64,000 nucleotides of DNA, from the NCBI RefSeq assembly GCF_036507355.1, contig NZ_AP027877.1; one strand, 5' to 3'. Positions 55,101 to 58,100 of this stretch are shown piece by piece (within the stretch, counting starts at the first letter, position 1; the number at the start of each line of letters is the position of its first letter). This DNA is from Escherichia coli. GTDB lineage: Bacteria > Pseudomonadota > Gammaproteobacteria > Enterobacterales > Enterobacteriaceae. The position numbers are program-made.

Positions 55101-58100
55101 GTTTGATCGCATCGCCAAACTGATGAAAGAAGACCGCGATGCTAACTACATTGCGCAAAACGCCGAAGGCGTGACTGTTAACCGCTGGCTCTCCACTGGG
55201 ATGCTGTGTGCTTCCGCGTCGAGTAACGAAACCGGCTATTTAACGCAAAAATTCTCCCGCGCGCTGGGTATGCTCGCGGTCGACAACCAGGCGCGTGTCT
55301 GACACGGACCAACGGTAGCAAGTCTTGCTCCAACATTTGGTCGCGGTGCGATGACCAACCACTGGGTCGACATCAAGAACGCCAACCTCGTCGTGGTGAT
55401 GGGCGGTAACGCCGCTGAAGCTCACCCGGTCGGGTTCCGCTGGGCGATGGAAGCCAAAATTCACAACGGCGCGAAGCTGATTGTGATCGATCCTCGCTTT
55501 ACGCGTACGGCGGCGGTGGCTGACTACTATGCCCCTATTCGTTCCGGTACTGACATTGCTTTCCTGTCAGGCGTATTGCTGTACCTGCTGAACAATGAAA
55601 AATTCAACCGCGAATATACCGAAGCCTATACCAACGCCAGCCTGATCGTGCGTGAGGATTACGGCTTTGAAGATGGCCTGTTCACCGGCTACGACGCGGA
55701 AAAACGCAAGTACGATAAATCCTCCTGGACTTATGAACTGGACGAAAACGGCTTCGCCAAACGCGATACCACGCTGCAACATCCGCGCTGCGTGTGGAAC
55801 TTGCTGAAACAGCACGTTTCCCGCTACACGCCAGATGTGGTTGAAAACATCTGTGGTACGCCAAAAGACGCGTTCCTGAAAGTCTGCGAATACATCGCAG
55901 AAACCAGTGCTCACGATAAAACTGCCTCGTTCCTGTATGCCCTCGGCTGGACGCAACACTCCGTTGGTGCGCAAAACATTCGTACGATGGCGATGATCCA
56001 GCTGCTGCTCGGCAACATGGGGATGGCAGGCGGCGGCGTTAACGCCCTGCGCGGTCACTCCAATATTCAGGGGCTGACGGACCTGGGCCTTCTGTCGCAG
56101 AGCCTGCCAGGTTACATGACGCTGCCAAGCGAGAAGCAGACCGATCTGCAAACCTACCTTACCGCCAACACGCCAAAACCGCTGCTGGAAGGCCAGGTAA
56201 ACTACTGGGGCAACTACCCGAAATTCTTCGTCTCTATGATGAAGGCCTTCTTTGGTGATAAAGCGACGGCGGAAAATAGCTGGGGCTTTGACTGGTTGCC
56301 GAAGTGGGATAAAGGCTACGACGTCCTGCAATACTTTGAGATGATGAAAGAGGGCAAGGTCAATGGCTATATCTGCCAGGGCTTTAACCCTGTTGCCTCA
56401 TTCCCGAACAAAAACAAAGTGATCGGTTGTCTGTCGAAACTGAAGTTCCTCGTCACCATCGACCCGCTGAACACTGAAACCTCTAACTTCTGGCAGAACC
56501 ACGGTGAGCTGAACGAAGTTGACTCGTCGAAGATCCAGACCGAAGTGTTCCGTCTGCCATCGACCTGCTTCGCGGAAGAGAACGGTTCAATCGTTAACTC
56601 CGGTCGCTGGTTGCAGTGGCACTGGAAAGGTGCGGACGCCCCAGGGATTGCGCTGACTGATGGCGAGATCCTCTCCGGTATCTTCCTGCGCTTGCGCAAG
56701 ATGTATGCCGAACAGGGTGGCGCGAACCCGGACCAGGTGCTGAACATGACCTGGAACTACGCCATTCCGCATGAGCCGAAGTCGGAAGAAGTAGCGATGG
56801 AGAGTAACGGTAAGGCGCTGGCCGATATTACCGATCCGGCAACCGGTGCGGTTATCGTCAAGAAAGGCCAACAACTTAGCTCGTTCGCCCAACTGCGCGA
56901 TGACGGTACAACTTCCTGTGGTTGCTGGATTTTCGCCGGTAGCTGGACGCCGGAAGGCAACCAGATGGCGCGTCGTGATAACGCCGATCCGTCTGGCCTC
57001 GGTAACACGCTGGGCTGGGCATGGGCATGGCCGCTTAACCGCCGCATTCTGTATAACCGCGCCTCCGCAGATCCGCAGGGTAACCCGTGGGATCCGAAGC
57101 GTCAGTTGCTGAAATGGGACGGCACTAAGTGGACCGGCTGGGATATTCCAGACTACAGCGCAGCGCCTCCGGGCAGCGGCGTCGGGCCGTTTATCATGCA
57201 GCAGGAAGGCATGGGGCGTCTGTTTGCCCTCGATAAGATGGCGGAAGGTCCGTTCCCGGAACACTACGAGCCGTTTGAAACGCCGCTGGGAACTAACCCG
57301 CTGCATCCAAACGTTATCTCGAACCCGGCTGCGCGAATCTTTAAAGACGACGCCGAAGCATTGGGTAAAGCCGATAAGTTCCCGTATGTCGGAACCACCT
57401 ATCGTCTGACTGAGCACTTCCACTACTGGACCAAACACGCGCTGTTGAACGCGATTTTGCAACCAGAGCAGTTTGTGGAAATCGGGGAGTCGCTGGCGAA
57501 TAAACTTGGCATTGCCCAGGGCGATACCGTGAAAGTCTCCTCCAACCGTGGCTATATCAAAGCCAAAGCGGTGGTGACCAAACGTATTCGCACGCTGAAA
57601 GCGAACGGCAAAGATATCGATACCATCGGTATTCCGATTCACTGGGGCTATGAAGGCGTAGCTAAAAAAGGCTTTATTGCCAATACGTTAACGCCATTCG
57701 TTGGTGATGCGAACACGCAGACGCCGGAGTTTAAGTCCTTCCTTGTGAATGTGGAAAAGGTGTAACGGAGACGACATATGGCTTATCAATCTCAAGATAT
57801 CATTCGTCGTTCCGCGACTAACGGTCTGACCCCCGCGCCTCAGGCGCGGGACTTCCAGGAAGAAGTGGCGAAACTCATCGACGTCACCACCTGTATCGGC
57901 TGTAAAGCCTGTCAGGTGGCGTGTTCAGAGTGGAACGACATTCGCGATACCGTCGGCAATAACATTGGGGTGTACGACAACCCCAATGATTTAAGCGCCA
58001 AATCGTGGACGGTGATGCGCTTCTCGGAAGTGGAGCAGAACGACAAACTGGAATGGCTGATCCGCAAAGACGGCTGTATGCACTGTTCCGATCCAGGCTG

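What the first reader, a model, noticed from the sequence alone, without database searches (positions are those of the whole stretch)
55300..55302. In-frame UGA in fdoG is a selenocysteine codon, not a gene break
Seen: the two ORFs the track reports for the formate dehydrogenase-O major subunit share a frame and are separated only by TGA 55300-55302, within ...NQARV-U-HGPTVASLAPTFGRGAM. Established: FdoG/FdnG/FdhF incorporate selenocysteine at this conserved site, directed by a SECIS hairpin immediately downstream of the UGA. The gene should be annotated as one 1016-aa Sec-containing CDS.
Basis: partly seen in the sequence, partly recalled or inferred. Interest (0 to 1): 0.3.

Follow-up and report, generated by a model that had tools for sequence, protein, structure and literature searches.

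The report
Selenocysteine codon in E. coli fdoG
The in-frame TGA at 55300-55302 is the well-known selenocysteine codon (Sec196) of the E. coli formate dehydrogenase-O catalytic subunit gene fdoG, followed by its textbook recoding hairpin, so the gene is intact and this is an ordinary, already documented feature.

Summary
TGA at 55300-55302 is the only stop in a 1017-codon frame (54715-57765), which encodes a 1016-aa protein.

- **Protein identity:** it aligns end to end with the solved FdnG structure 1KQF. The stop falls on that chain's residue 196, the position of Sec196. It also passes the NCBIfam formate dehydrogenase alpha-subunit model as one stretch.
- **Which paralog:** it is fdoG, not fdnG. 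It is 98.9% identical to K-12 fdoG and is flanked by fdhD, fdoH, fdoI and fdhE.
- **SECIS:** Rfam SECIS_3 matches 55297-55355 at 84.3 bits (gathering score 63). The UGA, an 11-nt spacer, the bulged U and the GUC loop are arranged as in fdhF.
- **Comparative evidence:** 116 of 120 related loci from other species keep TGA. The upper hairpin is 97.8% paired across 72 distinct sequences, with compensatory changes. The four Cys-codon relatives give no SECIS match.
- **Published evidence:** mass spectrometry detected Sec196.
- **sel genes:** they lie outside the window, but are present in about 5425 of 5426 complete E. coli genomes.

One caveat: free-energy folding alone is not significant (z = -0.76). 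RefSeq already annotates this as a single CDS. Novelty: none.

The parts
54715..57765 (+). fdoG, formate dehydrogenase-O alpha (catalytic) subunit; a single 1016-aa Sec-containing CDS
   Evidence: 1017 codons with one internal TGA. 1kqf_A at 1903 bits in one stretch. TIGR01553 at 1572 bits, cutoff 814. 98.9% nt identity to K-12 fdoG. RefSeq annotates one 3051-nt CDS.
55300..55302 (+). UGA codon 196, decoded as selenocysteine (Sec196, the Mo ligand in the FdnG structure)
   Evidence: TGA at the same codon in K-12 fdoG and fdnG. TGA in 116 of 120 related loci. MS evidence for Sec196 in PMC3636253.
55297..55355 (+). SECIS element (Rfam SECIS_3, RF01989) lying within the coding sequence
   Evidence: 84.3 bits against a gathering score of 63, E 9e-20, full model 1-59. 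Structure 90% paired over 72 distinct sequences, 0 of 500 shuffles reach it.
55303..55313 (+). 11-nt spacer between the UGA and the upper stem-loop (CACGGACCAAC), also the 5' arm of the lower stem
   Evidence: Read directly. fdhF has the same 11-nt spacing (CACGGCCCATC).
55314..55331 (+). Upper SECIS stem-loop GGUAGCAAGUCUUGCUCC, the presumed SelB-binding part; bulged U at 55316, apical loop GUC at 55322-55324
   Evidence: MFE and Rfam consensus agree on this helix. It is 97.8% paired, with 4 of 7 pairs showing changes on both sides. Loop U is invariant and loop G is at least 90% conserved in columns the search pattern left free.
55297..55367 (+). 71-nt block identical between fdoG and its paralog fdnG and across 22 Enterobacterales loci
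   Evidence: It is the longest identical run between fdoG and fdnG; the next is 37 nt, and the genes are 74.7% identical overall. The 22 loci all share at least this block, while the 150-nt flanks are 79% and 86% identical.
54715..54813 (+). Twin-arginine (Tat) signal peptide coding region (MQVSRRQFFKICAGG...SVALA)
   Evidence: SRRQFFK motif read. It aligns with the N-terminus of 1kqf_A. The cleavage site is inferred, not tested.
54703..54708 (+). Shine-Dalgarno AAGGAG, 6 nt upstream of the fdoG ATG
   Evidence: Read.
53688..54521 (-). fdhD, sulfurtransferase accessory gene, divergently transcribed
   Evidence: TIGR00129 at 340 bits, cutoff 140.9. RefSeq annotation.
57778..58680 (+). fdoH, beta (Fe-S) subunit
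   Evidence: TIGR01582 at 478.7 bits, cutoff 334.7.
58677..59312 (+). fdoI, gamma (cytochrome b556) subunit
   Evidence: NF007924 at 453.3 bits, cutoff 341. The FdnI model NF007558 scores only 243.6, below its cutoff of 339.
59309..60238 (+). fdhE, formate dehydrogenase accessory protein
   Evidence: NF002925 at 604.5 bits, cutoff 426.

Best explanation
The TGA at 55300-55302 is codon 196 of an intact fdoG gene and is translated as selenocysteine.

**Mechanism, established for E. coli formate dehydrogenases and inferred here from sequence identity:** as the ribosome approaches UGA196, the mRNA just downstream folds into the SECIS hairpin. The upper stem-loop at 55314-55331 starts 11 nt after the UGA, with a bulged U and a G-U-containing apical loop. 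The specialised elongation factor SelB, carrying GTP and Sec-tRNASec, binds this hairpin and delivers Sec-tRNASec to the A site in competition with release factor 2. Sec-tRNASec is the selC product, charged with Ser and converted by SelA using selenophosphate from SelD.

**Outcome:** translation continues to give the 1016-aa Tat-exported catalytic subunit, in which Sec196 ligates the molybdenum of the bis-MGD cofactor. Without Sec-tRNASec, translation stops at codon 196.

**Shown here:** the codon, the frame, the homology across the stop, the SECIS model match, the covariation, and the operon context. **Inferred from the literature:** SelB binding, Sec insertion in this strain, and the Mo ligation.
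For: - **Frame:** one internal TGA in a 1017-codon frame.
- **Homology:** end-to-end alignment to FdnG 1kqf_A at 1903 bits, with the stop on that chain's residue 196. TIGR01553 scores 1572 bits in one stretch.
- **SECIS model:** SECIS_3 at 84.3 bits against a gathering score of 63. The same 59 nt occur in K-12 fdoG and fdnG, and fdhF has the analogous SECIS_2 at the same 11-nt spacing.
- **Conservation of TGA:** 116 of 120 loci from other species that encode ARV-[U/C]-HGPTV have TGA.
- **Covariation:** the upper helix is 97.8% paired across 72 distinct sequences, and 4 of 7 pairs change on both sides. No shuffle of 500 reaches the observed score, and slid controls pair at 50% or less against 90%.
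- **Natural control:** the four Cys-codon homologs give no SECIS hit at the gathering score.
- **Synonymous-site constraint:** the longest identical run between fdoG and fdnG is 71 nt, exactly over the SECIS. It is identical in 22 Enterobacterales loci whose flanks have only 55% identity at third codon positions.
- **sel genes:** selAB and selD are each in 5425 of 5426 complete E. coli genomes, and selC in 5424.
- **Experiment:** the peptide VU196HGPTVASLAPTFGR was detected with Sec and never with Cys, and translation ends at UGA196 in a selC mutant (PMC3636253).
- **Annotation:** RefSeq annotates a single CDS.
Against: - Thermodynamic folding of 55300-55350 is not better than shuffled sequence (MFE -14.6 kcal/mol, z = -0.76, 41 of 200 shuffles as good).
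- In the Rfam register, the lower stem of the E. coli sequence has two non-standard pairs, A-C and A-G (read). The MFE uses a shifted register, so the lower stem is weakly supported here.
- The sel genes are not in the window, so their presence in this particular genome is inferred from the species.
- Columns 1-20 of alignment A1 were partly fixed by the search pattern. Invariance of the bulged U there is by construction.
- The published MS peptide cannot distinguish FdoG from FdnG.
Confidence: 0.97

Rival explanations
1. The TGA is a genuine nonsense mutation or a sequencing error, so fdoG is a broken pseudogene in this strain.
For: A mechanical ORF call splits the gene into 195-aa and 804-aa pieces. 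The hairpin's free energy is not exceptional.
Against: The same TGA at codon 196 is present in K-12 fdoG and fdnG and in 116 of 120 homologous loci from other species. It aligns with Sec196 of 1KQF. The downstream SECIS is intact and identical to K-12's. There is only one amino-acid difference from K-12 FdoG over 1016 residues, so nothing suggests decay.
Confidence: 0.01
2. The UGA acts mainly as a true terminator, and two separate polypeptides (residues 1-195 and a product restarted at ATG 55351) form a split enzyme.
For: Termination at UGA196 does occur when Sec-tRNASec is absent (PMC3636253). An ATG lies 16 codons downstream.
Against: The 16 codons between the TGA and that ATG (HGPTVASLAPTFGRGA) are conserved coding sequence and align with 1KQF. 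The published MS peptide VU196HGPTVASLAPTFGR spans the UGA. The conserved SECIS has no role in a split-gene model.
Confidence: 0.01
3. The UGA is read through by a near-cognate tRNA (Cys or Trp) rather than by Sec-tRNASec.
For: Homologs with Cys at this position exist: 4 of the 120 loci, all Neisseriales.
Against: Cys was never found at position 196 by MS, and translation stops there in a selC mutant (PMC3636253). A SECIS is conserved with covariation. The Cys homologs use TGY codons and lack the SECIS.
Confidence: 0.01

Closest known systems
E. coli K-12 fdoG (b3894, NP_418330.1), formate dehydrogenase-O alpha subunit with Sec196
   Same: Same gene. 3051 nt, 98.9% nt identity, TGA at codon 196, identical SECIS, and the same fdhD / fdoGHI-fdhE neighbourhood.
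   Different: 34 nucleotide differences and one amino-acid difference (K689 here, S in K-12). None lies in 55250-55400.
E. coli fdnG (b1474) / FdnG structure PDB 1KQF, formate dehydrogenase-N alpha subunit
   Same: 77% amino-acid identity, Sec at residue 196, and an identical 71-nt block over the UGA and SECIS. Both hit Rfam SECIS_3 at 84.3 bits.
   Different: It is a paralog at another locus (fdnGHI), 74.7% nt identical overall and 1015 aa long. The gamma subunit here fits the FdoI model, not the FdnI model.
E. coli fdhF SECIS (Rfam SECIS_2, RF01988), the experimentally dissected bacterial SECIS
   Same: UGA followed by an 11-nt spacer, then a GGU... upper stem with a bulged U and a loop containing G-U-C. 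The protein context is the same, ARV-U-HGP.
   Different: The fdhF upper stem-loop is 17 nt with a GGUC loop. Here it is 18 nt, with a GUC loop closed by an extra A-U pair. The window scores only 28.1 bits on SECIS_2 (gathering score 70) but 84.3 on SECIS_3. FdhF is a cytoplasmic 715-aa enzyme with Sec140.

Membership tests
Bacterial SECIS element (Rfam SECIS_3, RF01989) | In-frame UGA inside a selenoprotein gene | tested here: met
   TGA at 55300-55302 is the only internal stop in the 1017-codon fdoG frame.
Bacterial SECIS element (Rfam SECIS_3, RF01989) | Covariance-model score at or above the curated gathering score | tested here: met
   84.3 bits against 63, full model 1-59, E 9e-20.
Bacterial SECIS element (Rfam SECIS_3, RF01989) | Hairpin directly downstream: 16-37 nt from UGA to apical loop (PMC10778597), and an 11-nt spacer to the upper stem as in fdhF | tested here: met
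   19 nt (55303-55321) precede the GUC loop, and the 11-nt spacer is 55303-55313. The fdhF spacing is the same.
Bacterial SECIS element (Rfam SECIS_3, RF01989) | Base-paired upper stem supported by compensatory changes | tested here: met
   97.8% of cells are paired, and 4 of 7 pairs change on both sides. No shuffle of 500 reaches the observed score, and slid controls pair at 50% or less.
Bacterial SECIS element (Rfam SECIS_3, RF01989) | Bulged U and G-U in the apical loop (SelB contact nucleotides; from my own knowledge of the fdhF SECIS literature) | tested here: met
   U at 55316 is unpaired, and the loop is G55322 U55323 C55324. Loop U is invariant and loop G at least 90% conserved in unconstrained columns. 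Invariance of the bulged U in A1 is by construction of the search pattern.
Bacterial SECIS element (Rfam SECIS_3, RF01989) | Hairpin more stable than expected from composition | tested here: not met
MFE -14.6 kcal/mol, z = -0.76, and 41 of 200 shuffles fold as well.
Bacterial SECIS element (Rfam SECIS_3, RF01989) | SelB binding and SECIS-dependent Sec insertion | not testable with these tools
   This needs biochemistry. Published MS shows Sec196 in E. coli FdoG/FdnG (PMC3636253).
Bacterial SECIS element (Rfam SECIS_3, RF01989) | selA, selB, selC and selD present in the same genome | not testable with these tools
   They are not in the window. selAB and selD are each in 5425 of 5426 complete E. 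coli genomes, and selC in 5424.
Formate dehydrogenase-N/O alpha subunit (NCBIfam TIGR01553; Mo-bisMGD oxidoreductase) | Full-length HMM match above the curated cutoff | tested here: met
   1572.2 bits against 814.2, residues 2-1015 on profile 1-1009.
Formate dehydrogenase-N/O alpha subunit (NCBIfam TIGR01553; Mo-bisMGD oxidoreductase) | Sec (or Cys) at the Mo-ligand position, followed by His (U-H-G-P) | tested here: met
   The stop aligns with residue 196 of 1kqf_A in ...NQARVxHGPTVASL.
Formate dehydrogenase-N/O alpha subunit (NCBIfam TIGR01553; Mo-bisMGD oxidoreductase) | Twin-arginine signal and the N-terminal [4Fe-4S] Cys motif (Cys50, 53, 57, 92) | tested here: met
   SRRQFFK at residues 4-10, with C50, C53, C57 and C92 present in the translation. 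The residue numbers agree with PMC3636253.
Fdh-O (fdoGHI) rather than Fdh-N (fdnGHI) | Orthology to fdoG, and the fdhD / fdoGHI-fdhE context | tested here: met
   98.9% nt identity to K-12 fdoG against 74.7% to fdnG. The gamma subunit passes NF007924 (453 bits, cutoff 341) and fails FdnI NF007558 (243.6 bits, cutoff 339). fdhE lies downstream and fdhD is divergent.

The most novel reading that the evidence does not exclude
The 71-nt block 55297-55367 has stayed base-for-base identical in both paralogs (fdoG and fdnG) across at least 22 Enterobacterales loci, although third-codon positions in the flanks are only about 55% identical. It also runs 12 nt past the Rfam SECIS model. This could mean that the functional recoding signal in Fdh-N/O mRNAs is larger than the minimal SelB-binding hairpin, for example through extra ribosome or SelB contacts or tuning of competition with RF2. 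Alternatively, the two paralogs may be homogenised by recurrent short-tract gene conversion. The evidence here excludes neither. Dual protein-plus-hairpin constraint together with codon preference may explain it just as well.
Probability: 0.12. Interest if true: 0.25.

Novelty: already known. Interest (0 to 1): 0.04.

Why it matters
The practical value is for annotation. A naive ORF caller splits fdoG at this TGA, and the two pieces should be merged into one Sec-containing CDS (transl_except at codon 196), as RefSeq already does. Biologically it is the textbook case of UGA recoding in one of the three E. coli selenoproteins. Nothing here is surprising to a specialist, and no open question is advanced.

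Tried and rejected
folding 55300-55350 gave the expected hairpin, but it is not more stable than shuffles (z = -0.76). I rejected free energy as evidence and used the covariance model and covariation instead.
- **'U' in protein queries:** the tools refuse it. I repeated the searches with X at position 196.
- **sel genes in the window:** there is no tRNA at all. tblastn with K-12 SelA, SelB and SelD gave only noise, with E of 0.005 or higher on short low-identity stretches. They lie elsewhere in the genome, as in K-12.
- **tRNA next to the Paracoccus fdh gene (L021):** I suspected tRNA-Sec, but it is tRNA-Leu.
- **Rfam FdoG1_thermometer over the 5' UTR:** it scores 32 bits against a gathering score of 50. 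The match is carried by the Shine-Dalgarno and first-codon part, and the upstream helices align poorly. I did not accept it as a member.
- **SECIS_2 (fdhF type):** it scores 28.1 bits against 70 on this site, so the element belongs to SECIS_3, not SECIS_2.
- **Literature on SECIS structural determinants:** the search returned only reviews in the held library. The 11-nt and 17-nt minimal-element statements and the SelB contact nucleotides rest on my own knowledge of the fdhF literature.
- **TGA in every E. coli genome:** I did not test this codon individually across all 5425 genomes. The tool gives identity bands, not per-base calls.

Full report
**Observation.** The window has TGA at 55300-55302 within ...GCG CGT GTC TGA CAC GGA CCA ACG GTA.... 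The mechanical ORF list shows 54715..55302 (195 aa) and 55351..57765 (804 aa) in the same frame. Translating 54715-57765 gives 1017 codons with a single internal stop at codon 196. The context is AVDNQARV*HGPTVASLAPTFGRGAMTNHW, and the product is 1016 aa if the stop is read as an amino acid.

**What the gene is.**
- With X at position 196, the protein aligns in one stretch (1-1015) to PDB 1kqf_A, E. coli formate dehydrogenase-N major subunit, at 1903 bits. The X falls on that chain's non-standard residue 196.
- It matches NCBIfam TIGR01553 at 1572 bits (cutoff 814), again in one stretch across the stop.
- The neighbours are FdhD (divergent), FdoH, FdoI and FdhE. The gamma subunit passes the Fdh-O cytochrome b556 model and fails the FdnI cutoff.
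- Megablast finds the locus in 5425 of 5426 complete E. coli genomes, with a best identity of 99.5%. RefSeq annotates a single 3051-nt CDS there, which PGAP names 'fdnG'. In K-12 it is fdoG b3894.
- Against K-12 fdoG the window gene is 98.9% identical, with one amino-acid difference (K689 versus S) and no difference near the UGA. Against the paralog fdnG it is 74.7% identical.
- The translation shows the Tat motif SRRQFFK and the Fe-S cysteines C50, C53, C57 and C92. The numbering agrees with PMC3636253.

**The recoding signal.** Rfam's SECIS_3 model (RF01989) matches 55297-55355 on the + strand at 84.3 bits (gathering score 63, E about 1e-19). It is the top Rfam hit in the whole window. The anatomy read from the sequence is:

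| Element | Window coordinates |
|---|---|
| UGA | 55300-55302 |
| 11-nt spacer CACGGACCAAC | 55303-55313 |
| Upper stem-loop GGUAGCAAGUCUUGCUCC | 55314-55331 |
| Unpaired (bulged) U | 55316 |
| Apical loop GUC | 55322-55324 |

Nineteen nucleotides separate the UGA from the apical loop, inside the 16-37 nt range quoted for bacterial SECIS elements (PMC10778597). K-12 fdhF has the same layout: UGA, an 11-nt spacer, then GGUUGCAGGUCUGCACC. It is hit by the sister model SECIS_2 at 87.1 bits.

Folding energy alone does not single this hairpin out. The MFE is -14.6 kcal/mol with z = -0.76, and 41 of 200 shuffles fold as well. In Rfam's register the lower stem of the E. coli sequence contains A-C and A-G juxtapositions, and the MFE uses a shifted register. 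The lower stem is therefore weakly supported here.

**Comparative evidence.**
This is a sample, not a census.
- The 72 distinct 59-nt Sec sequences align without gaps (A1).
- On the Rfam structure, 90% of cells form standard pairs. The upper helix is 97.8% paired, and 4 of its 7 pairs change on both sides (for example G-C, A-U and C-G at 21:33; A-U, C-G and G-C at 24:30; G-C and U-G at 22:32).
- No shuffle of 500 reaches the observed covariation. Sliding the partners by 1-3 columns drops pairing to 50% or less.
- Some of these compensations change the protein (Ala-Ser-Leu-Ala to Ser-Ser-Leu-Gly). A purely protein-level constraint would not predict that.
- Caveat: columns 1-20 were partly fixed by the search pattern. 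Only columns 21-59, which hold the five innermost pairs and the loop, are free evidence. There the loop U is invariant and the loop G is at least 90% conserved.
- As a natural control, the four Cys-codon loci give no SECIS match at the gathering score, while Sec loci from Paracoccus and Terriglobia do. All four are Neisseriales: two Vogesella, Snodgrassella alvi and a Neisseriaceae MAG.

**Synonymous-site constraint.** Between window fdoG and K-12 fdnG, only 60% of codons for identical residues are the same codon. Yet the longest run of identical bases is 71 nt at 55297-55367, exactly over the SECIS, and the next longest is 37 nt. Twenty-two Enterobacterales loci of both paralog types carry an identical block that always covers 55297-55367. 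They come from Yersinia, Photorhabdus, Providencia, Morganella, Serratia, Citrobacter, Enterobacter, Klebsiella, Pluralibacter, Superficieibacter and E. albertii. In the 20 loci with enough flanking sequence, the 150-nt flanks average 79% and 86% identity, and third codon positions in the upstream flank average 55%. This fits an RNA-level function overlaid on the coding sequence. Short-tract gene conversion between paralogs is not excluded.

**The decoding machinery.** No tRNA gene is predicted in the window. K-12 SelA, SelB, SelD and selC find nothing credible in it. This is expected, because in K-12 these genes map far from fdo. At species level, selAB and selD are each present in 5425 of 5426 complete E. 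coli genomes, and selC in 5424. Their presence in this particular genome is therefore very likely but was not shown.

**Experimental literature.** Zorn et al. [quoted passage not shown] They detected the peptide VU196HGPTVASLAPTFGR, which is shared by FdoG and FdnG, with Sec and never with Cys. They also note that translation of fdnG and fdoG stops at UGA196 without Sec-tRNASec.

**Mechanism.** The SECIS hairpin recruits SelB with GTP and Sec-tRNASec, so UGA196 is read as Sec in competition with RF2. The full-length Tat-exported FdoG then uses Sec196 as a Mo ligand. The sequence-level steps are shown here. SelB binding, insertion in this strain and Mo ligation are inferred from identity with the characterised E. 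coli genes and the 1KQF structure.

**Rivals.** A pseudogene, a split gene, and near-cognate read-through each contradict the conservation of the TGA, the conserved SECIS with covariation, the conserved coding sequence between the TGA and the next ATG, and the published MS data.

**Verdict.** The feature is already known and already correctly annotated in RefSeq, so interest is very low. The only mildly notable by-product is the 71-nt block conserved across paralogs and genera. It is most simply explained by combined protein and SECIS constraint.

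Noticed in passing
window 55297-55367: A 71-nt block is base-for-base identical between fdoG and the paralog fdnG and in 22 Enterobacterales loci of both types, while the flanks diverge (third codon positions about 55% identical). It runs 12 nt past the 3' end of the Rfam SECIS_3 model.
   Followed up: partly
window 54546-54744 (+): There is a sub-threshold Rfam match to FdoG1_thermometer (RF02778) over the fdoG 5' UTR and start: 32 bits against a gathering score of 50. Only the Shine-Dalgarno and first-codon part aligns well, and the upstream helices do not.
   Followed up: partly
L005, L015, L047, L106 (genome-contig loci): The only Cys-codon (TGT/TGC) versions among the 120 sampled FdnG/FdoG-type loci are all Neisseriales: Vogesella indigofera, V. 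aquatica, Snodgrassella alvi and a Neisseriaceae MAG. They encode TVSALA(S/A) instead of TVASLAP and give no SECIS hit at the gathering score. This looks like one clade-level Sec-to-Cys replacement with loss of the hairpin.
   Followed up: partly
alignment A1 columns 22 and 32 (window 55318 and 55328): In Alphaproteobacteria and Acidobacteria, a G-C to U-G change in the SECIS upper stem coincides with paired amino-acid changes (Ala to Ser and Ala to Gly). RNA pairing appears to shape the protein sequence downstream of Sec.
   Followed up: partly
window 56779-56781 (codon 689 of fdoG): This is the single amino-acid difference from K-12 FdoG: Lys here, Ser in K-12, which needs two base changes. 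It is probably an ordinary strain polymorphism.
   Followed up: no
window 35523-35600 (+), 44445-44515 (-), 44537-44607 (-); 26447-26488 (+), 5520-5561 (-): Three naRNA4 (REP-type repeat) matches and two ES036 matches score above the Rfam gathering scores. These are repetitive extragenic elements typical of E. coli intergenic regions.
   Followed up: no
window 11205-11262 (+) and 6541-6593 (-): The ClpQY (hslVU) promoter element and the L31 (rpmE) ribosomal-protein leader are both detected above the gathering score. This places the window in the rpmE-hslVU-fdo region of the E. coli chromosome.
   Followed up: no
E. coli genome collection: Exactly one of the 5426 complete E. coli genomes lacks a match for fdoG, one lacks selAB and one lacks selD; two lack selC. 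I did not determine whether the same genome is missing all of them (co-loss or an odd assembly).
   Followed up: no
L001 4216-7266 (RefSeq NZ_CM128593.1) and other PGAP records: PGAP labels the fdoG ortholog 'fdnG: formate dehydrogenase-N subunit alpha', although the adjacent genes are named fdoH and fdoI. This is a naming inconsistency that comes from the shared TIGR01553 model.
   Followed up: partly
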